DNA from: a virus
Reading direction: 5' to 3' (one strand)
DNA length: 64,000 bases
IMG/VR virus record: IMGVR_UViG_3300045988_127492
Coordinates: 87,921 to 151,920 of that record
The position numbers were made by a program, and so were the translations under genes. Position 1 is the first letter of the stretch; each line of letters opens with the position of its first letter. The notes beneath the pieces are model-generated. The model made no database searches. It was given only the letters and a program-made list of their open reading frames with translations, and was not told the DNA's origin. Positions 665-62,863 of the stretch are shown here, one piece after another.

Positions 665-1810
665 TTACATATCCTCCATTGAATAAATTACTCTCTCTAA
701 GCTTCTTTTGGATTTAAAGCATTTCTTAAGTAAACACCACATAATTGCCTTTTCAACATCGTCTTCATCTTCCCAATCATTTAAGACTACAGAAGTTTGA
801 GTTCCATCTTTAAAGCCAACAGTTGTTCTAATCTTTTCTGTAGAAATATCTCTTGTTCTTCCTACAAATGCAATATCGTCTTTCGATAAGGTTTTACAAA
901 CGTGTTTATCAGTTTTGTTTTTAGGTACAATATATACATCAATACCCAAAGCATCTTTAATCTGACGTTCGCAACTTCTAAGCTCCTCTCCAATAGTATG
1001 TTCTTTTTCTTTTTTCGCTACTACTTTTTCAAGTGCTTTTAAGATTTCATCTGGTGACATGTTCATATCTGTTTTCTCCTCTTTATAATCAAAATATGGC
1101 ATTGGTTTCAGTTTAAACTCATTCTTCTCATGTAAACGATCAATTCGTCTTTTTACTTCTGGATCGTCACATACTCCTGTACGAATATATCTATCTAATA
1201 CTGCATAGGTGAATCCAAAGTTATCTTCATCTGACTTGCCGCATAAACCATCTGCTGGCGTTTTCTCTACATATTTTTTAGGCAATCTTAAATAATGACC
1301 AATTGCTACAACTTCCTTTTTTACAAAAGGAGCTAATGGAGCTAAATCTCCTGCTCCGTCACCATCACGAGTAAAATATCCAATATATATTTCACTAAGA
1401 TTTCCAGTATTGACTACTCTTCCATTATGAGACTGTGCTACCCCGCGTAAAACAGCCATTCTTAATCTTGGAGCAAGATTAATCAGGGTCTGATCTGATA
1501 CATCCAGTGCAAGATCAATCTGATCAATGATATCATCATAAGCATATCCAATATTAATAGTAAGATAATCAATACCTAATACGTGCTGGCAGATATCATA
1601 CGCCACATCTATATCATCCTGTTTGTAATTTGGCATAATTACTCCGAGGACTTTGCTTGGTCCGACAGCTTCCACACATAACTTAGCAGCTACTAAAGAG
1701 TCAACACCGCCGGAAATACCTACTATAAAGTTACATTCTGGGCCATTTTTCTCTCTCCAATCTCTGATCCACTGAATGCAATCATTTGTTGCTTTTTCTA
1801 CATTAAACAT
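665..1810 (-). CDS. nadE: NH3-dependent NAD+ synthetase (PP-loop ATPase) with ~130-aa C-terminal extension
   Basis: PP-loop GISGGVDSLVAA near the N-terminus. NadE-like body of ~245 aa, then an extra domain (res ~250-381) of unknown family. Confidence 0.85.
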   Translation of the reverse strand: MFNVEKATNDCIQWIRDWREKNGPECNFIVGISGGVDSLVAAKLCVEAVGPSKVLGVIMPNYKQDDIDVAYDICQHVLGIDYLTINIGYAYDDIIDQIDLALDVSDQTLINLAPRLRMAVLRGVAQSHNGRVVNTGNLSEIYIGYFTRDGDGAGDLAPLAPFVKKEVVAIGHYLRLPKKYVEKTPADGLCGKSDEDNFGFTYAVLDRYIRTGVCDDPEVKRRIDRLHEKNEFKLKPMPYFDYKEEKTDMNMSPDEILKALEKVVAKKEKEHTIGEELRSCERQIKDALGIDVYIVPKNKTDKHVCKTLSKDDIAFVGRTRDISTEKIRTTVGFKDGTQTSVVLNDWEDEDDVEKAIMWCLLKKCFKSKRSLERVIYSMEDM

Positions 1811-2303
1811 TCTGTTCCTCCAATTTCCATAATTCTACTTCAAAGTTACACAATTCTTCTTCTATAATTTTGTAAATCACATCCCAATCTGCGCCTCCTC
1901 TTCCGCAGCCTATTTTATATGGGAGTGCAATGCTTGTCTTGTGAGGCCTATTATCAACATCAAACCAATAAATAGGTATCTGTTGCCGAATGAAATTTAA
2001 TCCCTCTCGAAAAGCTTTAAGATCTGTATATTGCTTACCATCATATCCATACTTGTCTTGTGCAAATAAAGACAATATTACTTGATTTTTCCATCTGATA
2101 AAGTACTCGTCATATGTTCCAAGAAGTAATTCTGGATTAAACTCACGTAATTTACAGACGTTTCTATAATGTATATAAATACTTTCGTCATAATCTCTTA
2201 ATGCTTTAGCAACACCAGTATTCATTTCTCCTTGGCAGTTAACTTGATGAATTATATAATCGGTCTTTGCATCTACAATGTTGCCTTCAATAATTCTAAT
2301 CAT
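1803..2303 (-). CDS. macro-domain (ADP-ribose binding/processing) protein
   Basis: IIHQVNCQGEMNTGVAKAL and IGCGRGGADW motifs typical of stand-alone macro domains. 166 aa. Overlaps the nadE start. Confidence 0.75.
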   Translation of the reverse strand: MIRIIEGNIVDAKTDYIIHQVNCQGEMNTGVAKALRDYDESIYIHYRNVCKLREFNPELLLGTYDEYFIRWKNQVILSLFAQDKYGYDGKQYTDLKAFREGLNFIRQQIPIYWFDVDNRPHKTSIALPYKIGCGRGGADWDVIYKIIEEELCNFEVELWKLEEQNV

Positions 2304-2844
2304 TTTTTACCTCTTTATAATTTGCATCTCCTACGTCATACATACTAAAATGGAAATCCATATAATCTTTATCATCTATATCTTCTTTGTCAAAGAAATC
2401 TTCAATCTGCTTTCCATCTGCAATTACAATATAGAGATTTCCATCTTTGCTTATGTACGTTTTTTGAGCTTCGTTTGTATAATCACTATCACCTGTCCAA
2501 TCTGTATAATACTCATAAGATTCTACCGGTTCGTCAGGATGATATTCGTCTTCTAGTTCAAACTTAATTTTTGTAATGTCATTATACATAGACAATGTAT
2601 CAAATATCATTTCTGAAAAACCTTCTGGTACCGCAAAACAACCAAACTGATTTCTCTTTTTATTTGCATCTTTATGAATTTCAATGGCAATAATGTTAGC
2701 TGACACCATTTTACAAATAGCGTTACATGCTATTCTTCTTACAGAAGTGTCTATATCCTCTACTATAAAATCTCCTATGTATTTACCATCAATGGTCACA
2801 TAATCACAATTTTCTAAAATGAAGGTAATTGATTTTAGTCTCAT
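2296..2844 (-). CDS. hypothetical protein
   Basis: Track ORF 2296-2937. Start moved to the internal ATG 2844, preceded by AGGAGA, which avoids an 85-nt overlap with the upstream gene. Confidence 0.6.
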   Translation of the reverse strand: MRLKSITFILENCDYVTIDGKYIGDFIVEDIDTSVRRIACNAICKMVSANIIAIEIHKDANKKRNQFGCFAVPEGFSEMIFDTLSMYNDITKIKFELEDEYHPDEPVESYEYYTDWTGDSDYTNEAQKTYISKDGNLYIVIADGKQIEDFFDKEDIDDKDYMDFHFSMYDVGDANYKEVKND

Positions 2845-2852
2845 TTTTTCTC

Positions 2853-3266
2853 CTATAAATCCTGGAACGTAAACTTCTCGCCACAAGAGCAAATCACTTC
2901 TCCAATAGTTCCAATTGATGTAGGTGTGAAGCACCATGTAAGAGATCCACCTATGCAGCCATGTCCCATTGCTCTCTGTTTAGAAGTTTTAAGTCCATGT
3001 TTTTCTGCATCATGTTTCAACTGCCACTCTCTAATTTTCTTTTCTTCCTTTTCAGAAATTGGGAATCCTCTGTACAGATCTTCTTTTGCTTTTTTCAATT
3101 CAGCTTCCATTCTCTGCATTTCAGAATCTTTATAATGCTCATCTTTGAGATTTTTATTTTCTTCACTCAGATACTTAATTCGTCTTTCATAAGAATCTGC
3201 CTTATCAATAATTCCCTGACAAAGTTCTGAAACCGAATCAGTAAAATATGTTTTTCTCATTTTCAT
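2853..3266 (-). CDS. hypothetical coiled-coil protein with Cys/His-rich C-terminus
   Basis: 137-aa ORF with charged heptad-like N-terminal two thirds. C-terminal GHGCIGG...CSCGEKF. Confidence 0.6.
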   Translation of the reverse strand: MKMRKTYFTDSVSELCQGIIDKADSYERRIKYLSEENKNLKDEHYKDSEMQRMEAELKKAKEDLYRGFPISEKEEKKIREWQLKHDAEKHGLKTSKQRAMGHGCIGGSLTWCFTPTSIGTIGEVICSCGEKFTFQDL

Positions 3267-3267
3267 C

Positions 3268-4734
3268 TTAATGTTCTCCGTTTAATCTGTTTCTGATTTT
3301 TTCAAAACACTCATCATCATATGTTCCCCCATTAATGAACACTGTCCTTAATGCATCATCATATACAAGACTGTCATATCCATCTGCACACTGTAGTTCT
3401 CCATTTTCATCATAATAGATATAACAACATCCTTTATGAGATTTCTTTAAATGACTTGTATCAGTCTTCGGATCCTTATAAATCATGACTGGTTGTCCAT
3501 TAACTTCTCCGAACGTAGCTTTCATAGCAATTCCAAACATATCTCTAGTTACAACGACCATACGTCCATCAGGTTCTACGACCGCTGAAAAACAAAAAGC
3601 TCCCACACCAAAAACAATATTGTTCGCGGCGAATCCTTTCTTCTCAAGTTCCTCCCATACCTGCCTTACATTATTAAGAGTACAGCCATCTCCATAGATA
3701 ATTCCAATATGAGGGTCCAGTACTTTATATCCTTTGCTATTCACTGATCCTTCAAATGTGTTCCAGAGTTTTTCAATTGTCTTTACTGAAATTTCTACCA
3801 TATTTCCACTGTCCGGACGAACCAGAAGCTTACCGTTATGCTGCATAATTTCTTCTTTACAAGCTGGAAGAATGTTGTCAATCATATTCCAGTAATCATA
3901 TGTATCAGATACCATACTGAATGATGCATTAGGATAAAGCTCTGTAAGCAGTCTCTTCACAAATGTAATTTCATCTCCGTCTACGGCGAAGTTTGAAGCC
4001 ATAACTGAGTGTTCTGTTGAGATTGCTCCAATTCCAATACCTTCTGTATAACAATCAGCATCGTAATATTTGTCCAAATAATCAATTGCTGGGATTGTGC
4101 TGGTTTTATCGAATGATAATAACCATGCGGCAGAACATCTTTTAGCTTCTTCAATACAGGACATTCCTCTCATTCCAAAGTCAGAGCAAGCTAAATTGGG
4201 TTTTAAAGAGTCATCACAAGTCTTTTTGTAATAGAAATTAGCCAACTCTCTGTACATATGTCCGATTGTCGCATGAGCACATGGCTTCCAGAGTTCTACC
4301 TGCAGGATACATTCAATCCACTGTACAACCCATGCAAAGTCTGGATGTGTATTTGTGATCTCGATACACGGTACCCCCATCGGAACCAGTGTTCCCTCCG
4401 GTAATGCGCGGATTTGAATTGGAAGATATCCTAATTCGTGGAGTTTAAGGATTGGAGAAATATCGTAATTTCTTTCCCCTAACTGGATATCCATACTATA
4501 TGTATAGAGTTCCTGAATTTCGTCAGTATTCAACTTGAAAAAATCCCTTTTGAAATATTTAACAAGATACTCTTTAATAAAAGCCTGCAGTCCGAAGAAA
4601 ACCATATGATCTTGCTCCTTTAACATTGATCTTCTCGGAGTCCAATAAGAGACTAACTTCGTAAGTCCCTTCGGATAGATTTTATTATGGATTTGCTTAT
4701 AAGTGTCACTTAATAAAATTGCAAGTGTATTCAT
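3268..4734 (-). CDS. NAMPT-family phosphoribosyltransferase (NadV, or NARP1 Namat-like nicotinamide ADP-ribosyl transferase)
   Basis: N-terminus LLSDTYKQIHNKIYPKGLTKLVSYWTPR parallels the NAMPT signature [25 protein letters not shown]. 488 aa is a typical family length. Confidence 0.9.
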   Translation of the reverse strand: MNTLAILLSDTYKQIHNKIYPKGLTKLVSYWTPRRSMLKEQDHMVFFGLQAFIKEYLVKYFKRDFFKLNTDEIQELYTYSMDIQLGERNYDISPILKLHELGYLPIQIRALPEGTLVPMGVPCIEITNTHPDFAWVVQWIECILQVELWKPCAHATIGHMYRELANFYYKKTCDDSLKPNLACSDFGMRGMSCIEEAKRCSAAWLLSFDKTSTIPAIDYLDKYYDADCYTEGIGIGAISTEHSVMASNFAVDGDEITFVKRLLTELYPNASFSMVSDTYDYWNMIDNILPACKEEIMQHNGKLLVRPDSGNMVEISVKTIEKLWNTFEGSVNSKGYKVLDPHIGIIYGDGCTLNNVRQVWEELEKKGFAANNIVFGVGAFCFSAVVEPDGRMVVVTRDMFGIAMKATFGEVNGQPVMIYKDPKTDTSHLKKSHKGCCYIYYDENGELQCADGYDSLVYDDALRTVFINGGTYDDECFEKIRNRLNGEH

Positions 4735-5123
4735 TATTTTTTATTCTCCTCTTTGTTGTTTACAACTTTATCAATCTGGTCAGTAATGTAATCAATAACA
4801 TCCTTGCCGGTTTTCCCAACTGCTTGAATGTTATCTGTCGTTACATTATCTAATACAATCATTGTATACATTGTATCTTTCGATGGAGTTACTGCAAAAA
4901 GTAAACTACTAACGCAAAGCCAGATAACTGATTTCTTTAAATACTTTTTACATGCAACAACAGGTTCCTCATCCTGTTCATAATCCATAGAACTAAGAAA
5001 CCAAATAATTGATAATACCACCGCTGCACATCCAAGTAAAAATAATACAACACTAAATAATCCCTTTAAATCATCAAATAAATCAATTAAATAAATCAAC
5101 CATGGGTTAATAATCGGTTTCAT
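4734..5123 (-). CDS. membrane protein (2 predicted TM helices)
   Basis: 129 aa with hydrophobic stretches LFSVVLFLLGCAAVVLSIIWFL and VIWLCVSSLLFAV. Start/stop coupled to its neighbours. Confidence 0.6.
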   Translation of the reverse strand: MKPIINPWLIYLIDLFDDLKGLFSVVLFLLGCAAVVLSIIWFLSSMDYEQDEEPVVACKKYLKKSVIWLCVSSLLFAVTPSKDTMYTMIVLDNVTTDNIQAVGKTGKDVIDYITDQIDKVVNNKEENKK

Positions 5124-5136
5124 ATTTTTATCTCCT

Positions 5137-5526
5137 TTATAACTTTCCTATCAAACAGCTCCAAGTAAAACCAATCTGAAACATATGAGTTATTTGATCT
5201 TGAATTAAATTAATTTTCTTTTTATTGGCTTTCATATCATCTACTAACATATGTATCAATAAATTCATAACCAATAATAAAGGATTCCATTTACCACCAA
5301 TAATCATAAGCGCAATTGTTGGTGGTAACATAATCATAAATGACCAACTAAAGCTATGCATAAACAATGCTGCTAAATAATCATATTTATATAATTTTCC
5401 TGGTGCATTCTTTTCCCACCATGATTTTTGCTTTGCAGATGCTAACCATCCTTGCAAGTAATAATCATCTACAATATGACAGAAAATCATAGTAAATAAG
5501 ATAAATATTTTATATGCAATATTCAT
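5137..5526 (-). CDS. polytopic membrane protein
   Basis: 129 aa with 3-4 hydrophobic segments and an N-terminal HIVDDYYLQ motif. Shares a 1-nt junction with the Prs-like gene. Confidence 0.6.
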   Translation of the reverse strand: MNIAYKIFILFTMIFCHIVDDYYLQGWLASAKQKSWWEKNAPGKLYKYDYLAALFMHSFSWSFMIMLPPTIALMIIGGKWNPLLLVMNLLIHMLVDDMKANKKKINLIQDQITHMFQIGFTWSCLIGKL

Positions 5527-6329
5527 TATCTAAACCTCTCAATCAGTTCAATCTTAGGACTTTCAAGATTTGTCAAAATCGTATCTGTCGTATAAATCTT
5601 CTCAATCAGTCCATTATTCTTCAGAAGCTCTCCATCATAAATAGTGTTTTCACAATGAGTAACATAGAGATAAATCTTACCTACACCGGCCTCCTTTAGC
5701 TTTTTAGCACTATGATAAAAAGTACCGCCTCTGCTACAGATATCATCTACTATAAGGATATCTTTACCTGGGAGTTGATTAATTTCACCTGATAGATCAA
5801 GACCTTTGATTTCTCCTGTCTCCCAGTCTCTATTCTTAATACCAAACGCATATGGAAGATGTACCATGGAAGAATATCTCTTCATAGATCCTGCGTCTGG
5901 ATAAAACATCATGAGATTATCACTCGCAATCTTCTTGACAGTAGCTTCAATCATTCGATTCGGTGACTCTACATGCACTTTATTAAATAACGCAACAGAT
6001 ACATCAGAGTGAGGATCTAAAACTTCTACCTTATTAAAATGCAATGAATTAATAATCTGAGCAAAATATTTTAAAGTAAATAATTCGTTCTCATGCTTAA
6101 CTCGATCCATACGAGCATCTGGGATATAAGGCATGTATAAACTAGGTACTACTCTATGGTCCCAACAATATCTAGCTATATATTCAACTGCTGTTAACTC
6201 TTCCATTGATTCAAAGAACCATTCAATATTATCTCTACTCCATCCACCGATGGGTGGGAGATTCTTAAATAAGAATGTCCCATCCGGATATTTATCAAGT
6301 TTGATTTCTACACCGTTTAATTTAATCAT
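5526..6329 (-). CDS. ribose-phosphate pyrophosphokinase family protein (Prs, or NARP1 Adps-like ADPR pyrophosphokinase)
   Basis: PRPP-loop ILIVDDICSRGGTFYH. 267 aa, shorter than housekeeping Prs (~315 aa). Confidence 0.85.
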   Translation of the reverse strand: MIKLNGVEIKLDKYPDGTFLFKNLPPIGGWSRDNIEWFFESMEELTAVEYIARYCWDHRVVPSLYMPYIPDARMDRVKHENELFTLKYFAQIINSLHFNKVEVLDPHSDVSVALFNKVHVESPNRMIEATVKKIASDNLMMFYPDAGSMKRYSSMVHLPYAFGIKNRDWETGEIKGLDLSGEINQLPGKDILIVDDICSRGGTFYHSAKKLKEAGVGKIYLYVTHCENTIYDGELLKNNGLIEKIYTTDTILTNLESPKIELIERFR

Positions 6330-6684
6330 TCCAAATCTCCTTGTAATTTATTTCTCGCTGCTCAATGATGTTATTTCTTGTGAAAACAATCTCAAAATCT
6401 GAAATCTGTTTCGTTCCAACAAGCTGAAATTCATAAACTTTATATCCAAGTTTCTTCAGTTCAAGAACATCAGTAAGGCTGAACCAGTGTTTTAATGTTT
6501 CCTTTGATGGTGCTGCTGAGAACCACTGTTTCCCACCTTCTCTGTATAATTCACTATCTTCCATTGGCAGGTTTCTACTTAATCCTTCTGAGAGCTGGTC
6601 GAATACAGGATTCCATGTTCCATCAAAATTCCGCCACAGTCCATGTTTCTCAATTTGGTCTTCTACTCTATATCCGAAAATCAT
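6322..6684 (-). CDS. hypothetical protein inside the NAD island
   Basis: 120-aa ORF overlapping the Prs-like start by 8 nt. No family recognised. Confidence 0.6.
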   Translation of the reverse strand: MIFGYRVEDQIEKHGLWRNFDGTWNPVFDQLSEGLSRNLPMEDSELYREGGKQWFSAAPSKETLKHWFSLTDVLELKKLGYKVYEFQLVGTKQISDFEIVFTRNNIIEQREINYKEIWND

Positions 6685-6702
6685 TTCTTTTCTCCTATCA
6701 CA

Positions 6703-7398
6703 CTAATCTGACAACTTTTCATTGTATTTTTCTTTTAGTTTTTCATAAGCGAGATGTGCTTCATATTCTGTTTCATATCTTCCACCATATATATTTTTAC
6801 TATTGTGAACATATGTGACCTGCCATTTTCCATCTTTTAGTCTTGTTACACCTACATATCTTGATGTTGTTGTTAATTTTCTCCTGCCAAGCATTTCATC
6901 GAAATTAATTCTATTTGGTAAAAACATGCATGTCTCTATTGAGTATATTTTATTATTACTTCCAATATATGACATATCTTTATCTAATTGAATTTCTCCT
7001 TTTAAAAATTTTTGTTCATTATACCCTTTTATATTAGGGATATCTTTATAGAAATATTCAAAACACAACCATCTGTCGCATACCCGTATTCCCTTCTCCC
7101 CGTACAATTTATATCCCTTATGATTTTTGTTGTAACATCTTTCAATCATAAATTTCCATAAATTAAATTCTTTCTTATGATTGGATTTTTTTATATCGCC
7201 TTGACAGGCAACGCCATAATAAATAGGATAGTAAGGATCTCTTATTTCTCCATATATAACGCAAGATGCACATATATCTTTTTCATAATTAGTTAATAAA
7301 AATCTCACTCTATATTTCTGAGAATTATATCTTTTTATAATCTCATAATCTCCATATTTATTGGATTTTCTTATATCTCCAACTTTAATTTTACTCAT
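6703..7398 (-). CDS. AP2-domain DNA-binding protein, free-standing homing-endonuclease-like
   Basis: C-terminal YVGVTRLKDGKWQVTYVHNSKNIYGGRYETEYEAHLAYE (AP2/ERF-like). Central RCYNKNHKGYKLYGEKGIRVCDRW motif is common in phage HEG-like proteins. Confidence 0.65.
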   Translation of the reverse strand: MSKIKVGDIRKSNKYGDYEIIKRYNSQKYRVRFLLTNYEKDICASCVIYGEIRDPYYPIYYGVACQGDIKKSNHKKEFNLWKFMIERCYNKNHKGYKLYGEKGIRVCDRWLCFEYFYKDIPNIKGYNEQKFLKGEIQLDKDMSYIGSNNKIYSIETCMFLPNRINFDEMLGRRKLTTTSRYVGVTRLKDGKWQVTYVHNSKNIYGGRYETEYEAHLAYEKLKEKYNEKLSD

Positions 7399-7957
7399 TT
7401 ATGGCCTCAATCTGAAGTGATTTTAAAATTAACACCGTATTTTTATACATTTCTGTAGTAGTTGCAGCAGTACATTTTAAATCAATAAATATATTTGCTT
7501 CTGGAAAAGCTGTTTTTAATAATACCAAATTAGTAATAACACATACATCCAAGCACAAACCACAAAGCTCTATGAAATATTCGCCCTGAATTTCCTTATT
7601 TTCCGTTATAAATGGCTTTAAATATTCAATGAGTTCAAGAGATCCGAATGTATGTTTTAATATAGGTTTGTAATAACTGTATCCTCTTAAACAATTGTAA
7701 ATACTATCTTCAATTTGCCAACCATCTGAACTAACAATACAGTGCTTTATAGGTAATTTTTTACCTTCATTTGTCTCTAAGTAATCAGCATAATGAGTAT
7801 CTTGTGTAGATATAATAATGCCATTATTTGATTTATACTCTTCAATTTTTTTCACTATATTTGGTACAACTGCCTGAGCTTCCGGTGTACCTAGCGAACC
7901 TGTCACAAAATCATTCTGCACATCAACTACAATCAGAACTTTCTTTTTACTTTCCAC
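7391..7957 (-). CDS. pncA: nicotinamidase / isochorismatase-family hydrolase
   Basis: VLIVVDVQNDFVTGSLG N-terminal motif and catalytic-Cys region GLCLDVCV. 188 aa. Confidence 0.8.
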   Translation of the reverse strand: MESKKKVLIVVDVQNDFVTGSLGTPEAQAVVPNIVKKIEEYKSNNGIIISTQDTHYADYLETNEGKKLPIKHCIVSSDGWQIEDSIYNCLRGYSYYKPILKHTFGSLELIEYLKPFITENKEIQGEYFIELCGLCLDVCVITNLVLLKTAFPEANIFIDLKCTAATTTEMYKNTVLILKSLQIEAINE

Positions 7958-8570
7958 AAATATTACCTCCGATAATCATTTTCCCAAATGGATACTCGAC
8001 AATTCCATAGCTGCATAGGACTTCCATTTCTTTAGTTGGATCATTTCCACACACCTCTAACAATGCCTCAACTTCTTCTACTTTTCTATTGATTTGAGCT
8101 CTATCATCTTCATTATCCTTTAACAACTTATCTCTCATCTTTTTGCTATTTTCAGTCGCTTTATCAAACACATTAGGCATCTCAACTTTATAGCCTTCAT
8201 CCGTAAGTCGTTTCATACAAGCAATTAACTCATGTGTATTAGTATCTGAATTAAGTATCTCTAAAAGTTTTTCATTCATTTCCTTTTCGATTTTCTCAAG
8301 TGACCTTTTCTTCCAAAGTTTTACAACTGATGTGGAATTACTCACTGTTTTCACTTCCTTCTTTTCTGTCTGTAAAATATTTGCTAAATTATCTTCTTTT
8401 AAATAAAAGTACCCAAAATTGGATTTTTCATTGTATTTTCCAGGTACCTCCACTGCAACGAGGCCGGTATCACATATGCCTTTAACAGTTCCATTAAAAT
8501 GTAATAAATTACAAGATTGATACTTTTTAGGAACCGATATTATAAAGACTTTATTTCCTACATTAAACAT
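7947..8570 (-). CDS. hypothetical protein
   Basis: Track ORF 7947-8633 trimmed to ATG 8570 (GGAG RBS), because the 5' extension runs into tRNA-Leu. Confidence 0.6.
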   Translation of the reverse strand: MFNVGNKVFIISVPKKYQSCNLLHFNGTVKGICDTGLVAVEVPGKYNEKSNFGYFYLKEDNLANILQTEKKEVKTVSNSTSVVKLWKKRSLEKIEKEMNEKLLEILNSDTNTHELIACMKRLTDEGYKVEMPNVFDKATENSKKMRDKLLKDNEDDRAQINRKVEEVEALLEVCGNDPTKEMEVLCSYGIVEYPFGKMIIGGNICGK

Positions 8571-8594
8571 TTTTAACTCCTTTCTATTTATTAA

Positions 8595-8676
8595 TCCACC
8601 CAGAGAGACTCGAACTCTCACGCCGTTAAGCATTAGAACCTAAATCTAACGTGTCTACCAGTTCCACCATGAGTGG
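8595..8676 (-). tRNA. tRNA-Leu (anticodon TAG), class II
   Basis: Hand-folded. Acceptor CCACTCA/TGGGTGG. Anticodon stem TTAGA/TCTAA with loop TTTAGGT. Long variable arm. T-arm GAGAG-TTCGAGT-CTCTC. No encoded CCA. Confidence 0.8.
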
Positions 8677-9093: not shown

Positions 9094-9732
9094 TTAGTAT
9101 GTAATTTCGATTTCTGTCAGAGAATTACTTACTGAAAGTGCCGCATCTACTTCAGCAGTGAACTCTGCAATTTCTGTTTCCAAATCCTCCATTTCTTTAA
9201 GAACACCAATTGGATCAACAAGTTCCATTGTCTGAGCTTCTATATAAGCTTCTCTAGTTTTTGTAAACTCTTCAGTAGAGGTTTTACCTTCTTTACTGCC
9301 ATAGAGCCCTACAACATAATTTTCAGCTTTATCTTCCAATTTACCATTCTCAGTTATGATCTGAGCCATAGCAGCATCATACTGTTTTTTAATTTTCTGT
9401 TTTAAAAGTTTCTTGAAGTCCATTCCATGATTTTTCATTTCAATAGCTTCAGCTACTGTATACTCTTTATCGGCAACAGTGACTTTAGTTACTGCATTTG
9501 AAAGAACTACAGCTCTTTTAATAGCTTCTCTTCTCTTGATTAAATCAGTTGCTTTATCATAAGAAGATTTCATAACTCCTGTGTAAACTTTGATATCTAC
9601 ACCTTTGACTTTTGTGTTAGAATGCTTATTTGAAATACAAGCTTCTACACTGTTAATCGCTTTAATAATGCGATCATCTAAGATTTTCAGTTCTGCTAAT
9701 GCCTTATGGACATTCATTTTTTCTGTTGTCAT
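9094..9732 (-). CDS. hypothetical coiled-coil protein
   Basis: 212-aa ORF with a strong AGGAGG RBS and charged helical composition. No family named with confidence. Confidence 0.65.
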   Translation of the reverse strand: MTTEKMNVHKALAELKILDDRIIKAINSVEACISNKHSNTKVKGVDIKVYTGVMKSSYDKATDLIKRREAIKRAVVLSNAVTKVTVADKEYTVAEAIEMKNHGMDFKKLLKQKIKKQYDAAMAQIITENGKLEDKAENYVVGLYGSKEGKTSTEEFTKTREAYIEAQTMELVDPIGVLKEMEDLETEIAEFTAEVDAALSVSNSLTEIEITY

Positions 9733-9773
9733 AATAAATACCTCCTGAATTTTAAACTTTAAATTAGTTATCT

Positions 9774-9847
9774 GTGATAAGAGTGGACTCGAACCACTGA
9801 CGCCAAGAGCTATGTGCTCTCCGCTCTCCCAACTGAGCTACTTATCA
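9774..9847 (-). tRNA. tRNA-like gene with CAT anticodon and an aberrant anticodon loop (A33, C32:G38)
   Basis: Acceptor TGATAAG/CTTATCA, canonical D-arm GCTC-AGTTGGGA-GAGC and T-arm AGTGG-TTCGAGT-CCACT. The anticodon loop reads CACATAG and the variable region is 6 nt. Confidence 0.6.
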
Positions 9848-9910
9848 CTTTTCATGCATGACCTGTCGTGCTGCAGTCACAACAGGATTATGTGTACTTT
9901 TTCTTTCTCC

Positions 9911-10237: not shown

Positions 10238-10353
10238 TTAACTTCTCGCTTCCTTAAGTAATTCTTTTGAATTTTCATCATCTAATTCAAGTTCTCGCTT
10301 GTTTCTTATTGGAACTTTACAGCCTATAAAAGTCACTCCTTCGTCAGGAGAAA

Positions 10354-10427
10354 TGGAAACTCTGGGACTCGAACCCAGGACCGACCGGTTATGAGCCGGT
10401 TGCTCTAACCAACTGAGCTAAGTTTCC
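10354..10427 (-). tRNA. tRNA with CAT anticodon (elongator Met or lysidine-Ile type)
   Basis: Canonical cloverleaf. GGAAACT/AGTTTCC acceptor, ACCGG-CTCATAA-CCGGT anticodon arm, CTGGG-TTCGAGT-CCCAG T-arm. Confidence 0.9.
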
Positions 10428-10795
10428 ATAGTGGGTGAACTTTGAAAACACCCACATATAAAAACGTAACAACTATAATGATTGATTTGTAATCATGTCA
10501 GCTACACGAACAGTCGTCACCATTCCGTTGCCCCATCACTCACCTCTACCTCACTGACTCAATTACTTTTTTCGCCTTATACTAATTACTCATTAGTACA
10601 AAGCACATCTATATAAATGTTTCGTACATCCAAACCATTACTACCAATGTACTGCGTTCCCTTTTTTGAACAGGTTCCAGTTATTAAACCATCCAAATTT
10701 TCACTTAAGTTTTATCTATGTTCGCCATGAACATAAGTAGGTATACCTTAGTTCTATTGGTTACCTCTTTGGCCTTCAGAGCTAACTTAGAACTA

Positions 10796-10867
10796 CGGGG
10801 TAGATGGGATTCGAACCCATGAATGCTGGAGTCAAATTCCAGTGCCTTGCCGCTTGGCCACTACCCT
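10796..10867 (-). tRNA. tRNA-Gln (anticodon TTG)
   Basis: Closely parallels bacterial tRNA-Gln (GCCAAGCGG D-arm, CTGGA-ATTTGAC-TCCAG anticodon arm, ATGGG-TTCGAAT-CCCAT T-arm). Has an A1-C72 mismatch. Confidence 0.8.
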
Positions 10868-12054: not shown

Positions 12055-12960
12055 TTAGTGACCATTGACATCTGCTTCATGTAATAACATTACATCTGAA
12101 AACATTTTGTCTCCGATCAATCGTTTATCTTTATTTCTTGCTCTTCTTGATTGAGCCCATGATAAATATGGATGCATATGATAATAAATCAAATTAGCTA
12201 TATAAAAGATATCAAACATATCTTTCCCCGTAGTTACATCAGAGAAATCGCAAGATGTCAAAAATTCATATGCTCCAACACAATGATGCTGATAATAGTG
12301 ACAGTAATCATCCTCTTCTCCTTTTTTATTGATTCTTGATTTAGTAAATAATTTTCCTATATCATGAACCCAAGCTGCAACCCATAAATTAGAGTCTTCT
12401 GTTGGAACTCCTGCTGAAACCTTTTTCAGATGTCCGTAAAGAGTCAAGGTATGATGTGGATTTTCCTGATCAAAATCACGAGTCATATCTATTAAATCAT
12501 TCAAATCTTTACAGTCATCCTGTACAACTCTGATTTCATTGAATCCTTCATGGCACATAGGCGGAGAAAACGTTTTTCTCATTCTAGTAATTACTTCGTC
12601 AGGCACTGGAATTTCTCTTTTTAAATTATCTTCCAAACACTTTTCATATGTTTTTAAGAATACAACACAGGTTTTATAAACTTGTTTACTAACCTGCTTT
12701 AAAAAATGCACTCTCCTTTTCTTTACTAAGTTAGTAGCATCATAGATAACTGAATGAGTTTTCAGATCTTCCAGTATCCTTCGATGTAACTCTTCAAATA
12801 CTTTATTATTATCTGAATCATCAAAATTATCTCCGTACATTTCTCTTCTGAGTTTATCAGATGAATGTAGTATATACTCCGGATTAGCTTCTACATAGGC
12901 CTTAGCCCAAGTACTCTTACCAGAAGCAGGAAGTCCTACTAACATAATCAATTCATTCAT
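12055..12960 (-). CDS. bifunctional polynucleotide 5'-kinase (T4 Pnk-like P-loop) fused to a C-terminal HD phosphohydrolase domain
   Basis: N-terminus LVGLPASGKSTWAKAY...DATNL...RR...VPDEVITRM parallels the T4 Pnk kinase domain. The C-terminus has H...HD (AAWVHDIGK) metal-site motifs. Confidence 0.75.
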   Translation of the reverse strand: MNELIMLVGLPASGKSTWAKAYVEANPEYILHSSDKLRREMYGDNFDDSDNNKVFEELHRRILEDLKTHSVIYDATNLVKKRRVHFLKQVSKQVYKTCVVFLKTYEKCLEDNLKREIPVPDEVITRMRKTFSPPMCHEGFNEIRVVQDDCKDLNDLIDMTRDFDQENPHHTLTLYGHLKKVSAGVPTEDSNLWVAAWVHDIGKLFTKSRINKKGEEDDYCHYYQHHCVGAYEFLTSCDFSDVTTGKDMFDIFYIANLIYYHMHPYLSWAQSRRARNKDKRLIGDKMFSDVMLLHEADVNGH

Positions 12961-13707: not shown

Positions 13708-13736
13708 AGTATATCACAGTCATTTCATCTTGTCAA
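13708..13736 (-). promoter_or_regulatory. sigma-A type promoter TTGACA-N17-TATACT (tandem with 13619-13647; -35 overlaps the ligA stop)
   Basis: Minus strand reads TTGACA agatgaaatgactgtga TATACT. It has the same upstream TATAAAC-N5-TGTAAAAC element as its neighbour. Confidence 0.65.
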
Positions 13737-15769
13737 CATGTTTTTACAAAATTGTTTATAAAATCTTTTTCTGAAATAATCGGCACACCAAGCTGTGTAG
13801 CCTTTACATTTTTACTGCTCTTTGATGTTGTATCATTATTAATAAGGTAGCTAGTCTTTTTAGTCACAGAGCCTGTCACTTTGCCTCCCAGTGATTCTAT
13901 CTTCTCTACCAACGCAACCCTATTGGTGAACTCAGTGAGTGTCCCAGTAATGCAGAACGTTTTTCCCTTTAAACTATCTTCTACAATTTGTTGAGGAATC
14001 TCTTCAAACTGAAATTCTGCTGCAAGTTCATTTATATATCTTTCATTTTCTTCAAAATAATTTTTTAGAGAAGATGCTTTCGCGAATCCAAAATCCTCCA
14101 GACATGTGAAATCATACTGAGAATTCATATCTTCAATGAAACTGTCAAAAGCTGTTTTTAATCCTTTTTCTCTTGCTCTTTTCTCTTCGATATTATTTAA
14201 TTGTTTACTAACATTACGACCTATTAAAGGTATCGACAACCCATAAAGGAATTTAGGTAACGTTGTTTTACGGCATTTTTCTATTGATTCCAGAATTTTA
14301 TCAACTTTCTTTGCACCTAATCCTTGTAGTGTCAGCAACATTTCTCTACAATTCTTTAAATAAAATAAATCTATTGGCCCTTTAATAAACTCTTTCTCTA
14401 TTAAAAGATTCAAGGTAGATTTAGAAAGCCCAGTAATATCATGCGCTTCTTTACTTACAAAAGTACACAATTCACCAAGAAGTTTTCCCTTGCACTCAAG
14501 GTTCATACATTGAAGTTCCTCTGTTTCGTTCCCACCAATAACCTTTGTATGTCCACCACAAATAGGACATTTATCTGGAACTGTAAACAAATTATTTTTG
14601 TTTCTAGTCAGGTTCTCCGCAATCTGCGGAATGATCATATTAGCTTTATATACAGTGATCGTATCCCCTACAGATAACTCATAGCTTTTGAAAATACTTA
14701 CATTGTGTAAACTAGCTCTCTCAACGATGGTATCATCTATCTCAACCGGATCAAACACTGCTACGGGTGTTAACTGACCAGTCTTTCCCATGCTCCATTC
14801 TACGTTTCTGATCACTGTTTCAAACTTATCATCTGCAAATTTATAAGCCAATTGAGAACGAACATGGTGTGATGTTTCTCCTAGGCTTTCGCCATAGGCA
14901 ATATCATCATATGAAAATACGATTCCATCAATAGGAACATCTTTTTCTCTTGCAGTCTCTCTAAGGATTCTAATATCTTCTTCAATATTATCAACCTTTA
15001 CCCAAGGAACCACTTCAAATCCAAGAAGTTCTAATATCTGCAGTCTTTTCATAAAGCTATTACCATCTATGCCGCGAACCGCCTTCCAAGCAACAAAATT
15101 AATTTTTCTTTCTTTTGTAATAGAGCTATCAAGCTGCCTGACGGAACCAGCAGCTAAGTTCCTAATATTCTTAATGCCGTTCTCCTTGATATATTTTTCT
15201 AATTCTTCACCAAAAAGACCTTTTCTTTCTCCTTCTTCTTTCAACTCAATGTCTTTCAGTTCTTTAAGATGAATGTATTGATGAATTTCCATAATAGCTT
15301 CTCCATCTACTACCACCTCATCTTTATACGGAATTTCTTTCGGAAGATTTACAAAAGTGTTTACTGTATGTAAAACATCTTCGCCAATAACTCCATTACC
15401 TCTAGTCTCTGCTGCAACTAATTTACCATCTATATATTTTACTGAAATAGTAAGCCCATCCATTTTTAGCATAGCCAATCCAGGCAAACCATTCATAAAG
15501 TTTTCAACATCACTTATATCTTTTGTCTTGTCTAAAGACAGCATTGGATGATCGTGTTCAACTTTTTCCAACTCACTAACTGTTTCTGAGCCAACACTAA
15601 TAGTGGGACTGTTGGCTAAAATAATACCTGTAGCATGTTCAAGTTCTTTAAGTCGATCATATTTTTTATCATATTCATAATTAGAAATTAGAGAAGTGTC
15701 TTCCATATAATATGCATGAGCATATATACTTAATTCTTCCACTAATTCACGCATTTCCTTTAAAAGCAC
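13733..15769 (-). CDS. ligA: NAD+-dependent DNA ligase
   Basis: KxDG adenylation motif (LKMDGLTISVKY), Zn finger CPICGG...CMNLEC, HhH region and C-terminal BRCT (GKTFCITGTL). 678 aa. Confidence 0.92.
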   Translation of the reverse strand: MLLKEMRELVEELSIYAHAYYMEDTSLISNYEYDKKYDRLKELEHATGIILANSPTISVGSETVSELEKVEHDHPMLSLDKTKDISDVENFMNGLPGLAMLKMDGLTISVKYIDGKLVAAETRGNGVIGEDVLHTVNTFVNLPKEIPYKDEVVVDGEAIMEIHQYIHLKELKDIELKEEGERKGLFGEELEKYIKENGIKNIRNLAAGSVRQLDSSITKERKINFVAWKAVRGIDGNSFMKRLQILELLGFEVVPWVKVDNIEEDIRILRETAREKDVPIDGIVFSYDDIAYGESLGETSHHVRSQLAYKFADDKFETVIRNVEWSMGKTGQLTPVAVFDPVEIDDTIVERASLHNVSIFKSYELSVGDTITVYKANMIIPQIAENLTRNKNNLFTVPDKCPICGGHTKVIGGNETEELQCMNLECKGKLLGELCTFVSKEAHDITGLSKSTLNLLIEKEFIKGPIDLFYLKNCREMLLTLQGLGAKKVDKILESIEKCRKTTLPKFLYGLSIPLIGRNVSKQLNNIEEKRAREKGLKTAFDSFIEDMNSQYDFTCLEDFGFAKASSLKNYFEENERYINELAAEFQFEEIPQQIVEDSLKGKTFCITGTLTEFTNRVALVEKIESLGGKVTGSVTKKTSYLINNDTTSKSSKNVKATQLGVPIISEKDFINNFVKTC

Positions 15770-21147: not shown

Positions 21148-21357
21148 CTACACTCTCATATTCCACGCATCAATCAATCCATGCGGTGTTTGATCCCAAC
21201 CTCTATCAATTCCTGCTATACAATTGCAACAATAAATTCTCCATCTTTTTCCTACTATGTGTGTATATTCTTCTAAAATAATTTCTGATTCTCCACAAAA
21301 CGGACACGGTTTGAATTTTACACCTTGATATAAATTTTTTGCCTTGATAGTCTTCAT
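21148..21357 (-). CDS. Lar-family-like zinc-ribbon protein (restriction-alleviation type)
   Basis: KPCPFCGESE ... CCNC ... IDAWNMRV matches the Lar-family pattern PCPFCG...AWN-x-R. 69 aa. Confidence 0.6.
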   Translation of the reverse strand: MKTIKAKNLYQGVKFKPCPFCGESEIILEEYTHIVGKRWRIYCCNCIAGIDRGWDQTPHGLIDAWNMRV

Positions 21358-46438: not shown

Positions 46439-46495
46439 AGTATTATTCCTCCACGTGTATGTTCTTTTCATATTATTTATTCCCAAAAGGAAGGG

Positions 46496-46669: not shown

Positions 46670-46706
46670 CTTTGGTGACCACTCCTTTCTATCTTGTTTG
46701 GTTATT

Positions 46707-62571: not shown

Positions 62572-62618
62572 TTATACATATTGAATTGCTGGCCTAGAGA
62601 ATTCTAGGTTGGCAGTTT

Positions 62619-62691: not shown

Positions 62692-62698
62692 TTGGTAT

Positions 62699-62734: not shown

Positions 62735-62784
62735 CGTAAAATCATTTTTTTTCATAGGAGAGCTAGAACTCTCCTCCTTTCTTT

Positions 62785-62857: not shown

Positions 62858-62863
62858 TCATTT

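What the first reader, a model, noticed from the sequence alone, without database searches (positions are those of the whole stretch)
665..7957. NAD+ island: Prs-like and NAMPT-like pair (NARP1-type signature) embedded with NadE, a macro domain, a nicotinamidase, two membrane proteins and unknowns
Within 7.3 kb the phage encodes:
- NadE (with an extra ~130-aa C-terminal domain).
- A macro domain.
- A NAMPT-family enzyme.
- Two small membrane proteins.
- A short (267-aa) Prs-family enzyme.
- A 120-aa unknown.
- An AP2-type homing-endonuclease-like gene.
- A PncA-type nicotinamidase.

Established knowledge is relevant here. Phage NAD+ reconstitution pathway 1 uses a Prs-family ADPR pyrophosphokinase (Adps) plus a NAMPT-family transferase (Namat) to rebuild NAD+ from ADPR and nicotinamide. 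Pathway 2 uses NadV plus an NMNAT. Both counter NAD-depleting defences such as TIR, SIR2 and SEFIR systems.

I see no NMNAT (NadD/NadM/NadR-like) gene in this window, which favours NARP1-type chemistry. The PncA plus NadE pair belongs to the deamidated Preiss-Handler branch but lacks PncB/NadD, so that branch is incomplete unless the host or an unannotated ORF supplies those steps. The macro domain could process ADPR derivatives. The phage replication ligase (13733-15769) is itself NAD-dependent. The combined gene set is larger than the two-gene modules described so far.
Basis: partly seen in the sequence, partly recalled or inferred. Interest (0 to 1): 0.7.

Follow-up and report, generated by a model that had tools for sequence, protein, structure and literature searches.

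The report
Nicotinate-type NAD+ rebuilding module in phage
This gut phage carries a conserved four-enzyme set that probably rebuilds NAD+ from its breakdown products by way of nicotinic acid rather than nicotinamide; this variant of a known phage counter-defence pathway was not described in any paper I could search.

Summary
Four of them form a conserved module: PncA nicotinamidase, an Adps-like Prs-family kinase, a Namat-like NAMPT-family transferase, and NadE. The order PncA-Adps-Namat-(macro/NADAR)-NadE recurs in more than 100 viral contigs, in the unrelated gut phage Phass-1, and in about 60 Clostridia genome loci, 38 of which have an NrtR regulator alongside.

The Namat-like enzyme keeps the catalytic core but has lost the base-pocket triad His-Gly-Asp. 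That triad includes the Asp that binds the nicotinamide amide (human NAMPT Asp219). The change tracks the neighbours exactly:
- 54 of 54 viral loci with the altered pocket have both PncA and NadE.
- 0 of 56 canonical loci have either.

Best reading (inferred, about 0.55):
1. PncA converts nicotinamide to nicotinate.
2. Adps converts ADP-ribose to ADPR-PP.
3. The Namat-like enzyme joins the two into deamido-NAD.
4. NadE amidates that to NAD+.

The macro protein resembles the known NARP1-associated phosphatase. The other ORFs vary between close relatives. No NMNAT is in the window. I rate this a new variant of NARP1. I found no paper describing it.

The parts
7391..7957 (-). PncA-type nicotinamidase (188 aa), first gene of the conserved module
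   Evidence: PF00857 at 7.5e-14. The best PDB hit is P. horikoshii pyrazinamidase/nicotinamidase 1ilw at 1e-8. The catalytic residues D12/K101/C139 and the metal ligands D53/H55/H72 are conserved across 117 unique module homologues. The gene lies directly upstream of Adps in the distant relatives.
6703..7398 (-). HNH homing-endonuclease-like gene inserted between PncA and Adps; not part of the pathway
   Evidence: PHROG HNH endonuclease families, best 3e-41. It is absent from this position in relatives.
6322..6684 (-). 120-aa ORF of unknown function; lineage-specific
   Evidence: Hits only phrog_23161, which has no assigned function, and has no Pfam or NCBIfam hit. It occurs in only 8 of the 73 related loci.
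5526..6329 (-). Adps-like Prs-family pyrophosphokinase (267 aa)
   Evidence: phrog_619 at 2e-69. It scores 92 bits on the PRPS model TIGR01251, below the 113-bit cutoff. An HMM built from 75 canonical Adps scores it 240 bits against 131 for E. coli Prs, and it falls inside the Adps radiation in an NJ tree. It shares the catalytic hairpin K165-x-R-D-x-x-T-G-x-I with ICP1 Adps (Lys185), and keeps R73, H107, D145 and D195-D196.
5137..5526 (-). Small hydrophobic protein, DUF3307 (129 aa); lineage-specific
   Evidence: PF11750 at 5e-5 and phrog_2470. Hydrophobic segments at residues 1-19 and 58-77. Found in only 10 related loci. It carries the only DNA-level match in the phage collection.
4734..5123 (-). 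Small hydrophobic protein (129 aa) between Adps and Namat; conserved within this phage lineage only
   Evidence: phrog_3878 at 9e-19. Hydrophobic segment at residues 17-48. Present in 43 viral loci and 1 genome locus.
3268..4734 (-). Namat-like NAMPT-family transferase (488 aa) with an altered base pocket; predicted nicotinate-specific
   Evidence: The best PDB hits are a phage protein carrying the Namat clamp signature, 9w5w/9w5x, at 2e-114, against 2e-56 for the best animal NAMPT entry. The catalytic core is conserved: D10, Y12, F186, R189, H242, R306, D308, T396-R397-D398. Details of the pocket follow in the next two parts.
4099..4185 (-). Codons for pocket residues Ser184, Lys210 and Ser212, which replace the canonical His, Gly and Asp (human NAMPT H191, G217, D219)
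   Evidence: All 77 canonical unique sequences carry H-G-[D/E]. All 133 module-linked unique sequences carry [G/S/A]-[N/K]-[A/S]. The same split holds among the 150 nearest 50%-cluster representatives: 96 canonical, 50 altered.
3556..3585 (-). 10-residue insertion (A384-V393) inside the adenine 'selectivity clamp' motif, giving G-A-F-C-F-S + insert + V-V-T-R-D
   Evidence: Alignments to 9w5w and to canonical Namats. The aromatic residue equivalent to F392 is kept in 131 of 133 sequences. The AF2 model is of low confidence in this region.
2853..3266 (-). 137-aa ORF of unknown function, conserved in this phage lineage only
   Evidence: No family hit. Present in 40 viral loci and no genome locus.
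2296..2937 (-). ORF of unknown function (phrog_2349); the true start is probably Met32, near 2844
   Evidence: The phrog_2349 match begins at residue 32. The gene is absent from relatives; only a 10% N-terminal overlap artefact matches.
1803..2303 (-). Macro-domain protein (166 aa), Adpp-like; predicted ADP-ribose-1''-phosphate phosphatase
   Evidence: phrog_335 'phosphatase' at 1e-35. tblastn gives 7e-18 over 97% of its length to the macro gene that sits between Adps and Namat in Vibrio phage 184E37-3b. It is present in 42 of 54 altered-pocket viral loci against 11 of 56 canonical loci. NARP1-AP is described.
665..1810 (-). NH3-type NAD synthetase NadE (residues 1-240) plus an unassigned C-terminal domain of about 140 aa
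   Evidence: PF02540 and TIGR00552. PDB hits 2e18 and 3fiu at 6e-34. The P-loop G31-ISGGVDS is conserved. The C-terminal domain occurs in only 15 close relatives, and its AF2 model has pLDDT 46.

Best explanation
The region encodes a four-enzyme, deamidated version of NAD+ reconstitution pathway 1.

Proposed steps:
1. PncA deamidates the nicotinamide released when NAD+ is cleaved, giving nicotinate.
2. The Adps-like kinase pyrophosphorylates ADP-ribose to ADPR-PP.
3. The Namat-like transferase has lost its nicotinamide-binding Asp and joins nicotinate to ADPR-PP. This gives nicotinate adenine dinucleotide (NaAD) directly.
4. NadE amidates NaAD to NAD+.

Adps plus Namat thus replace PncB plus NadD of the Preiss-Handler route. 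The macro protein probably feeds the pathway by turning ADPR-1''-phosphate into ADP-ribose, as in NARP1-AP.

Shown here: gene content, conservation of the module, covariation of the pocket residues with the neighbouring genes, and membership of the Adps and Namat lineages.

Inferred: every substrate and product, and the role against NAD+-depleting defences.
For: (1) Module conservation. The order PncA-Adps-Namat-(macro)-NadE holds in 73 IMG/VR loci, down to 41% Adps identity. It also holds in the code-15 gut phage Phass-1 and in 59 of 79 genome loci.

(2) Covariation, counting only loci with at least 5 kb on both sides.
- Altered pocket: 54 of 54 viral and 43 of 46 genome loci have PncA, NadE and Adps.
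- Canonical pocket: 0 of 56 have PncA or NadE.
- A second, partly overlapping sample gives 62 altered loci (62 with PncA, 61 with NadE) and 79 canonical loci (none with either).

(3) The substituted Asp.
- It hydrogen-bonds nicotinamide in the Namat crystal structure, and D215A cuts activity 8-fold.
- Human NAMPT Asp219 defines substrate specificity, and D219S switches substrate affinity.
- His and Gly of the same pocket change together with it.

(4) Indicators that the ribosyl donor is ADPR-PP.
- The kinase shares the derived Adps hairpin and is nested among canonical Adps.
- The clamp aromatic equivalent to F392 is kept in 131 of 133 sequences, whereas NARP2 Nampt has Gly there.
- A-type relatives keep the Arg equivalent to R40.
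- Phass-1 and 10 of 50 altered-pocket cluster representatives have a clamp of canonical length, and Phass-1 has the full canonical clamp sequence.
- An ADP-ribose-processing macro or NADAR gene often sits inside the module.

(5) No NadD, PncB or NMNAT recurs next to the module in 79 genome loci or occurs in the window. C. acetobutylicum has nrtR-pncA-pncB-nadD-nadE, so Adps plus Namat occupy the PncB plus NadD slot.

(6) The cellular copies sit beside NrtR, whose effector is ADP-ribose.

(7) PncA and Nampt are mutually exclusive in more than 6000 bacterial and archaeal genomes. A PncA placed next to a nicotinamide-using Namat would compete with it for substrate.
Against: - No biochemistry: all substrates are inferred from sequence and context.
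- The adenine clamp is remodelled in the window protein. It has a 10-residue insertion, the Y396 equivalent is lost, and the R40 equivalent is Met. ADPR-PP use is therefore less secure here than in Phass-1 or the A-type relatives.
- The closest solved NadE structures include the F. tularensis enzyme 3fiu. From my own recollection, not checked here, that enzyme prefers NaMN, so NadE alone does not prove a NaAD intermediate.
- The altered-pocket sequences form essentially one clade in both trees. Phass-1 falls outside it in the Namat tree but inside it in the Adps tree. The covariation may therefore reflect only one or two evolutionary events.
- The four-step route costs an extra ATP for the same net product, and its advantage is unexplained.
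- The Adps PP-loop Asp (ICP1 D216) is Ser here, although it is also Ser in a canonical Bacillus-phage Adps.
Confidence: 0.55

Rival explanations
1. The module is a phage-boosted Preiss-Handler salvage route that runs through PRPP. The Prs-like enzyme makes PRPP. The NAMPT-like enzyme acts as a nicotinate phosphoribosyltransferase and makes NaMN. Host NadD makes NaAD, and phage NadE finishes the job (or NadE amidates NaMN to NMN).
For: - PncA and NadE are classic Preiss-Handler enzymes.
- The pocket change fits nicotinate whichever ribosyl donor is used.
- The clamp of the window enzyme is remodelled.
- Namat retains PRPP activity in vitro.
- NCBIfam names the protein nicotinate phosphoribosyltransferase: NF006629 scores 462 bits against a cutoff of 405.
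- NadE is closest to compact NadEs that include F. tularensis 3fiu.
- Gut jumbo phages with pncB-nadD-nadE clusters exist.
Against: - The kinase lies in the Adps lineage, carries the derived Adps hairpin, and falls below the PRPS model cutoffs.
- NadD never joins the module in phage or cellular copies.
- Phass-1 and other altered-pocket lineages keep the full adenine clamp.
- Macro, NADAR and the ADP-ribose-sensing NrtR point to ADP-ribose as the input.
- NF006629 is a family-wide NadV/NAMPT-type model. Canonical Namat genes in phage records carry the same product name.
Confidence: 0.2
2. Adps and Namat perform ordinary NARP1 chemistry, joining nicotinamide to ADPR-PP to give NAD+. PncA and NadE are independent auxiliary genes that happen to travel with them.
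For: - The best PDB match is the Namat-signature protein 9w5w.
- The catalytic core is intact.
- Single clamp or pocket mutations in Namat reduce activity only partly.
Against: - Presence of PncA and NadE tracks loss of the His-Gly-Asp pocket exactly across hundreds of loci.
- The lost Asp is the residue that binds the amide.
- PncA would destroy Namat's own substrate.
- PncA and Nampt are mutually exclusive in bacteria.
Confidence: 0.08
3. This rival concerns the biological role and is compatible with any of the chemistries above. The module is a host-derived housekeeping NAD+/ADP-ribose recycling operon, carried by the phage as an auxiliary metabolic gene set to sustain NAD+ (for example for its NAD-dependent ligase). 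It is not a dedicated counter-defence.
For: - The same module sits in chromosomal, NrtR-regulated operons flanked by cellular genes. One example is Pseudoruminococcus massiliensis, between membrane-protein genes on one side and asd/dapA on the other.
- Phage and bacterial sequences interleave in the tree.
- The phage ligase is NAD-dependent.
Against: - Canonical NARP1 and NARP1-AP are demonstrated counter-defences.
- Phage copies drop NrtR.
- Phage copies gain macro far more often: 78% against 22% of cellular copies.
Confidence: 0.3

Closest known systems
NARP1 (Adps + Namat; phages SPbetaL1, Bas63, ICP1, Fado)
   Same: A Prs-family kinase of the Adps lineage lies next to a NAMPT-family transferase of the Namat lineage. 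The catalytic Lys hairpin, the Namat catalytic core and the T-R-D motif are conserved, and no NMNAT is present.
   Different: The nicotinamide pocket His-Gly-Asp is replaced by Ser-Lys-Ser. The clamp helix carries a 10-residue insertion. PncA and NadE are obligate neighbours. Canonical NARP1 loci never have these features: 0 of 56 and 0 of 79 loci.
NARP1-AP (Adps + Adpp macro phosphatase + Namat; Vibrio phage Gary)
   Same: A macro-domain protein is associated with the Adps/Namat genes. The window protein is homologous (7e-18) to the operon-embedded macro of Vibrio phage 184E37-3b.
   Different: Here the macro gene lies three ORFs downstream of Namat, next to NadE. hmmscan gives no Pfam macro hit. 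Its closest named relatives are DarG-type macrodomains. Its activity is untested.
Preiss-Handler operon nrtR-pncA-pncB-nadD-nadE (Clostridium acetobutylicum) and phage pncB-nadD-nadE clusters
   Same: PncA comes first, NadE comes last, and cellular copies have NrtR regulation. The route is deamidated.
   Different: PncB and NadD are missing, and their slot is filled by Adps plus a Namat-like enzyme.
nrtR-prs-nadV operons of Shewanella/Acinetobacter and bacterial NARP1 (Paenibacillus foliorum)
   Same: A Prs paralogue and a NadV-family gene lie under ADP-ribose-responsive NrtR control. NARP1 activity has been demonstrated in bacteria.
   Different: Those operons have no PncA or NadE listed. Their pocket residues were not examined here.
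Human NAMPT D219S mutant
   Same: The same position, the amide-binding Asp, is replaced by Ser. The mutation is reported to switch substrate affinity.
   Different: It is an engineered single mutant acting on PRPP. Here the change is natural, is accompanied by changes at the H191 and G217 equivalents, and lies in an enzyme of the ADPR-PP-using lineage.

Membership tests
NARP1 | Prs-family protein in the phage Adps clade, separate from cellular Prs | tested here: met
   The canonical-Adps HMM scores it 240 bits against 131 for E. coli Prs. It is nested among canonical Adps in an NJ tree rooted on E. coli Prs. It falls below all NCBIfam PRPS cutoffs. Caveat: only one cellular Prs served as outgroup, and the tree has no bootstrap.
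NARP1 | Adps catalytic and acceptor residues (ICP1 K185, R87, H121, D161, D212, D213, D216) | tested here: met
   K165, R73, H107, D145, D195 and D196 are conserved. The D216 equivalent is Ser199, as in the canonical Bacillus phage KoopaTroopa Adps.
NARP1 | Namat homologue in the immediate vicinity of adps | tested here: met
   The two genes are separated by two small ORFs, about 0.8 kb. They are adjacent in the distant relatives.
NARP1 | Namat catalytic core (F189, R192, catalytic His, R306, D308, T398-R399-D400) | tested here: met
   F186, R189, H242, R306, D308 and T396-R397-D398.
NARP1 | Asp215, which hydrogen-bonds the nicotinamide amide | tested here: not met
   It is Ser212 in the window. 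It is Ala or Ser in all 133 module-linked sequences and Asp or Glu in all 77 canonical ones.
NARP1 | Clamp helix signature G-S-X-phi-X-phi-X-phi-T-R-D, with aromatics at positions 3 and 7, plus a stacking residue in the clamp loop (R40) | tested here: not met
   The window has G-A-F-C-F-S-A plus a 10-residue insertion, then V-V-T-R-D. The aromatic at position 3 is kept and the one at position 7 is lost. The R40 equivalent is Met. Phass-1 and A-type relatives meet more of this feature.
NARP1 | Makes NAD+ from ADP-ribose, ATP and nicotinamide, and counters NAD+-depleting defences | not testable with these tools
   Requires enzyme assays and infection assays.
NARP1-AP | Macro-domain ADPR-1''-phosphate phosphatase (Adpp) within the NARP1 operon | tested here: inconclusive
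   It is homologous to the operon-embedded macro of a Vibrio phage (7e-18) and to phrog_335. There is no Pfam macro hit at E up to 0.01. The gene lies more than two genes from Namat. Its activity is untested.
NARP2 (Nampt + Nmnat) | NMN adenylyltransferase encoded by the phage, and a PRPP-type Nampt lacking the clamp aromatics | tested here: not met
   No CTP_transf_like domain in any window ORF of 60 aa or more, nor in 6.7 kb beyond the window start. The NARP2-type Nampt of phage 44RR2.8t has G-M-G-G-G-L-L-Q-M, whereas the window has G-V-G-A-F-C-F. The rest of the roughly 152-kb genome was not seen.
Preiss-Handler salvage (PncA, PncB, NadD, NadE) | All four enzymes present, including canonical PncB and NadD | tested here: not met
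   PncA and NadE are present. The canonical NAPRTase models TIGR01513 and NF009131 score about 22 bits against cutoffs of about 300. There is no NadD in the window or among recurrent neighbours.
NARP3 (PnuC + NadR) | PnuC transporter plus bifunctional NadR | tested here: not met
   Neither domain was found in the window. The family is defined.

The most novel reading that the evidence does not exclude
The Namat-like protein catalyses a reaction not yet described: nicotinate + ADPR-PP gives NaAD + PPi, a 'nicotinate ADP-ribosyltransferase'. This reaction bypasses both PncB and NadD. It defines a four-step deamidated ADP-ribose recycling pathway (PncA, Adps, nicotinate-Namat, NadE). The pathway would be housekeeping and NrtR-controlled in many gut Clostridia, and repeatedly captured by their phages, often with macro or NADAR add-ons, as a counter-defence suited to PncA-type hosts.
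Probability: 0.5. Interest if true: 0.82.

Novelty: new variant of a known kind. Interest (0 to 1): 0.74.

Why it matters
If correct, this adds a new enzyme specificity and a fourth route to the known phage NAD+ reconstitution pathways.

- It would explain the PncA and NadE genes seen in gut phages.
- It would show that ADP-ribose recycling is also a regulated cellular pathway in abundant gut Firmicutes.
- It gives a simple sequence rule for annotating thousands of metagenomic 'NAMPT' genes: a His-Gly-Asp pocket predicts nicotinamide use, and [G/S/A]-[N/K]-[A/S] predicts nicotinate use.
- The prediction can be tested directly with four purified proteins and LC-MS.
- It bears on which defences gut phages can evade, and on niacin/NAD flux in the gut microbiome.

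Tried and rejected
- Near-identity DNA search of the first 9 kb against 50,697 phage records found only a 382-bp match over the DUF3307 gene. This gave no help in identifying the phage.
- AlphaFold2 of the NadE C-terminal domain from a single sequence gave pLDDT 46, which is unusable, so no fold search was run.
- AlphaFold2 of the Namat-like protein with 43 close homologues gave mean pLDDT 62, with the pocket and clamp regions below 50. The insertion is predicted as a hairpin, but not reliably, so no fold search was run.
- The promoter and terminator scan gave counts no higher than shuffled sequence. No minus-strand terminator lies inside the module, which is consistent with co-transcription but does not prove it.
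- Pfam, NCBIfam and PHROGs gave nothing for the 120-aa, 137-aa and 228-aa ORFs, the NadE C-terminal domain, or the C-terminal extension of the 646-aa Namat variants.
- I looked for altered-pocket lineages with a canonical clamp in viral contigs, using three cluster representatives as queries. No close relatives were retrieved. The 174 new loci (141 with at least 5 kb on both sides) only extended the covariation table.
- Walking along the 152-kb source-like contig to look for an NMNAT elsewhere was not possible, because only window proteins can be looked up.
- I considered and rejected an intein as the cause of the 646-aa Namat variants. The extra residues are a C-terminal extension.
- Ten literature searches found no paper that links Namat or ADPR-PP with nicotinic acid, NaAD, PncA or NadE. 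The library omits most subscription journals.

Full report
**Observation.**
- NadE (665-1810) matches PF02540 over residues 10-235 of 381 and TIGR00552 above its cutoff. About 140 C-terminal residues are unassigned.
- 3268-4734 is a NAMPT-family protein (PF04095 plus PF18127). 5526-6329 is a short Prs-family protein (phrog_619, 2e-69). 7391-7957 is an isochorismatase-fold protein whose best solved relative is the P. horikoshii nicotinamidase.
- 1803-2303 has no Pfam hit. It matches phrog_335 'phosphatase', the DarG macrodomain model and DarG macrodomain structures.
- 6703-7398 is an HNH endonuclease. The two 129-aa ORFs have hydrophobic segments.
- A Pfam scan of all other window ORFs found no NMNAT and confirmed that the ligase at 13733-15769 is NAD-dependent.
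- An ENA metagenome contig of 152,097 bp carries the identical Namat protein with the same local gene order.

**A conserved four-gene module.** A scan of IMG/VR with the Prs-like protein returned 73 loci. About 50 are near-identical and 20 share only 41-59% identity.
- In all loci with enough sequence the order is PncA, Adps-like, Namat-like, often macro, then NadE. PncA lies directly against the kinase in the distant relatives.
- The HNH gene, the 120-aa ORF, the DUF3307 protein, ORF 2296-2937 and the NadE C-terminal domain occur only in subsets of the closest relatives. The other membrane protein and the 137-aa ORF are confined to this phage lineage.
- The same cluster (nicotinamidase, Prs, NAMPT, one small ORF, NadE) is annotated in Phass-1, a stop-codon-recoded gut phage with no other detected similarity to this window.
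- In 50,697 phage records, Adps homologues occur in 1511 and Namat/Nampt in 2043. NadE occurs in only 45 and PncA in only 9, and most of those 9 are uncultured human-gut phages.
- Canonical NARP1 phages (ICP1, the Bas63-like W22, Bacillus phage KoopaTroopa) have the two-gene operon alone.

**The transferase is Namat-like but has a different base pocket.**
- Its best solved relatives are 9w5w/9w5x (2e-114). These carry the published Namat clamp signature G-S-F-T-Y-Q-Y-N-T-R-D and score far ahead of animal NAMPT, at about 2e-56.
- The catalytic core is intact.
- The Asp that hydrogen-bonds the nicotinamide amide is Ser212 here. That residue is SPbetaL1 Asp215, whose D215A mutant loses 8-fold activity, and corresponds to human Asp219.
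- Reviews citing Khan et al. 2006 state that Asp219 defines NAMPT substrate specificity and that D219S switches substrate affinity. My recollection that D219S gains nicotinate use comes from memory of that paper, which I could not read.
- Two other pocket positions change with it. They are the equivalents of human His191 and Gly217, listed as sites of inhibitor-blocking mutations.
- All 77 unique canonical sequences read H-G-[D/E]. All 133 unique module-linked sequences read [G/S/A]-[N/K]-[A/S].
- Among the 150 nearest 50%-identity cluster representatives of 1.8 billion proteins, 96 are canonical, 50 altered, 1 mixed and 3 fragments.

**Covariation with the neighbouring genes.** I counted only loci with at least 5 kb on both sides of the transferase.
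- 54 of 54 altered-pocket viral loci and 43 of 46 altered-pocket genome loci contain PncA, NadE and Adps.
- 0 of 56 canonical loci contain PncA or NadE, although 55 of them contain Adps.
- A second, partly overlapping sample gave 62 altered loci (62 with PncA, 61 with NadE) and 79 canonical loci (none with either).
- This is not as many independent events as loci. In NJ trees the altered-pocket Namats form one clade with Ser and Ala subclades, and the linked Adps proteins also form one clade. Phass-1 lies outside the clade in the Namat tree but inside it in the Adps tree.
- Even so, the association has persisted down to about 44% identity, across unrelated phage backbones and across the phage-bacterium boundary.

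**The kinase is Adps-like.**
- It falls below every NCBIfam PRPS cutoff.
- An HMM built only from 75 canonical Adps scores it 240 bits against 131 for E. coli Prs.
- It shares the derived catalytic hairpin K-x-R-D-x-x-T-G-x-I with ICP1 Adps, where Lys185 is essential. E. coli Prs has K-R-R-P-R-x-N at that site.
- At 267 residues it is shorter than the 315-residue E. coli Prs. This is consistent with the loss of the PRPS C-terminal helices reported for Adps homologues.
- On the transferase side, the clamp aromatic equivalent to F392 is kept in 131 of 133 altered-pocket sequences, whereas a NARP2-type Nampt has Gly there.
- A-type relatives keep the stacking Arg equivalent to R40. Phass-1 has a fully canonical clamp sequence, and 10 of the 50 altered-pocket cluster representatives have a clamp of canonical length.
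- The window enzyme is less clear. It has a 10-residue insertion in the clamp, lacks the second stacking aromatic, and has Met at the R40 position.

**Cellular copies.**
- A scan of one genome per species returned 80 loci, all of the altered-pocket type. Most come from Lachnospiraceae, Ruminococcus and other gut Clostridia.
- Some are prophages. Examples are Lachnospiraceae bacterium A4, and Ruminococcus sp. AM36-2AA at 76% identity to the window protein.
- Others are chromosomal. In Pseudoruminococcus massiliensis the order is pncA, adps, namat, a glutamine-dependent nadE, and an NrtR-type regulator (NUDIX plus NrtR winged helix), flanked by cellular genes.
- NrtR lies beside the module in 38 of 80 genome loci and in no viral locus.
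- The only families that recur within 5 kb are the four enzymes, NrtR and macro. NadD, PncB and NMNAT do not recur.
- NrtR responds to ADP-ribose. The C. acetobutylicum operon is nrtR-pncA-pncB-nadD-nadE, and prs-nadV operons under NrtR were called unexplained in 2008.
- Adps plus the Namat-like enzyme therefore sit where PncB plus NadD sit in the standard operon.
- PncA and Nampt are reported as mutually exclusive in more than 6000 bacterial and archaeal genomes.

**Mechanism proposed.** The four steps are as follows.
1. PncA converts nicotinamide to nicotinate. Its Asp-Lys-Cys triad and its Asp/His/His metal site are conserved.
2. Adps converts ADP-ribose to ADPR-PP.
3. The Namat-like enzyme joins nicotinate to ADPR-PP, giving NaAD.
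4. NadE amidates NaAD to NAD+.

The macro protein is homologous (7e-18) to the macro gene embedded between Adps and Namat in a Vibrio phage. It is therefore probably an Adpp-type ADPR-1''-phosphate phosphatase, as in published NARP1-AP. It is present in 78% of altered-pocket viral loci against 20% of canonical ones. NADAR domains, sometimes fused to NadE, fill the same slot in other relatives.

All substrates are inferred. I put this chemistry at about 0.55. A PRPP/NaMN Preiss-Handler reading with host NadD gets about 0.2, and ordinary nicotinamide NARP1 about 0.08. Whether the phage copy serves counter-defence or general NAD+ supply is a separate, open question. One possible advantage is my own inference. 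In hosts with active PncA, the nicotinamide released by NADases is quickly deamidated, so a nicotinate-using enzyme would not be starved.

**Comparison and novelty.** NARP1, NARP1-AP, NARP2, NARP3 and RyR-domain add-ons are published. Gut jumbo phages with pncB-nadD-nadE clusters are also reported. I found no paper that links Namat or ADPR-PP with nicotinate, NaAD, PncA or NadE, but the library omits most subscription journals. The region fails two defining Namat features, the amide-binding Asp and the clamp signature, while meeting the lineage and core features. I therefore file it as a new variant of NARP1 rather than as a member.

Noticed in passing
relatives of window 3268-4734 (P0010, P0002 and others; for example L002 11830-13785): Many close relatives encode a 646-aa Namat with a C-terminal extension of about 158 aa. 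One such cluster has 2406 member sequences. The extension begins ...VVMDVDGVL..., which looks to me like a HAD-phosphatase motif I, but no Pfam or PHROG family matches it. P0050 carries a different C-terminal extension with a DYDDTL motif.
   Followed up: partly
L165 9462-9890; L065 12311-13495; L234 9503-10648 and others: NADAR-domain genes (PF08719) occupy the slot between Namat and NadE in 17 viral and 7 genome loci, and are fused to NadE in several. This is another ADP-ribose-related add-on to the module.
   Followed up: partly
window 8595-8676, 9773-9848, 10353-10428, 10796-10867 (-); 62618-63237 (+): There are eight tRNA genes: Leu, Met x2 and Gln just upstream of the module, and Glu, Asp, Ser and Tyr at the far end. 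tRNA-Leu overlaps the 5' end of ORF 7947-8633, whose true start is probably near 8570. The module in Phass-1 also lies next to a tRNA array.
   Followed up: no
window 12055-12960: A protein with an AAA_33 kinase domain and an HD domain lies beside the NAD-dependent DNA ligase. This may be an RNA/tRNA repair function.
   Followed up: no
window 24726-25508, 26366-26839, 26821-27105: Three paralogous ORFs share the N-terminus M-K-[I/L]-R-x-G-F-V-T-N-S-S-S-S-S-F. None has a family match.
   Followed up: no
window 21367-21555 and 46019-46717: HicA-toxin-like and HicB-antitoxin-like genes are present, along with a Lar restriction-alleviation homologue at 21148-21357.
   Followed up: no
window 31.5-36.7 kb and 41.9-43.4 kb: There are runs of small paralogous ORFs beginning ...K-[V/I]-G-D..., with weak SH3/tudor-like hits (SH3_15, CarD_TRCF_RID, PcrA tudor).
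   Followed up: no
window 5161-5542: This is the only DNA-level match to any deposited phage: 382 bp at 87.7% identity over the DUF3307 membrane-protein gene, to the 176-kb gut phage MT835469. It suggests the small gene moves between phages.
   Followed up: no
L090, L101, L103, L105, L116, L118, L119, L121, L123, L130, L132, L137: A subgroup of canonical-type Namats has Glu in place of the amide-binding Asp (G-S-E-T) and S-R-D-S in place of T-R-D-T. All have Adps, and none has PncA or NadE.
   Followed up: no
L242 10416-17119 (beyond the window start on ENA contig ERZ27229669 k119_71578): Downstream of the module the phage carries an RlaP nucleotidyltransferase, an 873-aa P-type cation ATPase, and vWA-TerF-like, TerD and PspA-like genes. 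This is an unusual stress/tellurite-resistance-type cluster for a phage.
   Followed up: no
window 9094-9732: This ORF matches phrog_1491, annotated 'tail fiber protein' (9e-52). It is 99-100% identical across the close relatives, while the adjacent 7947-8633 product is only 43-50% identical.
   Followed up: no
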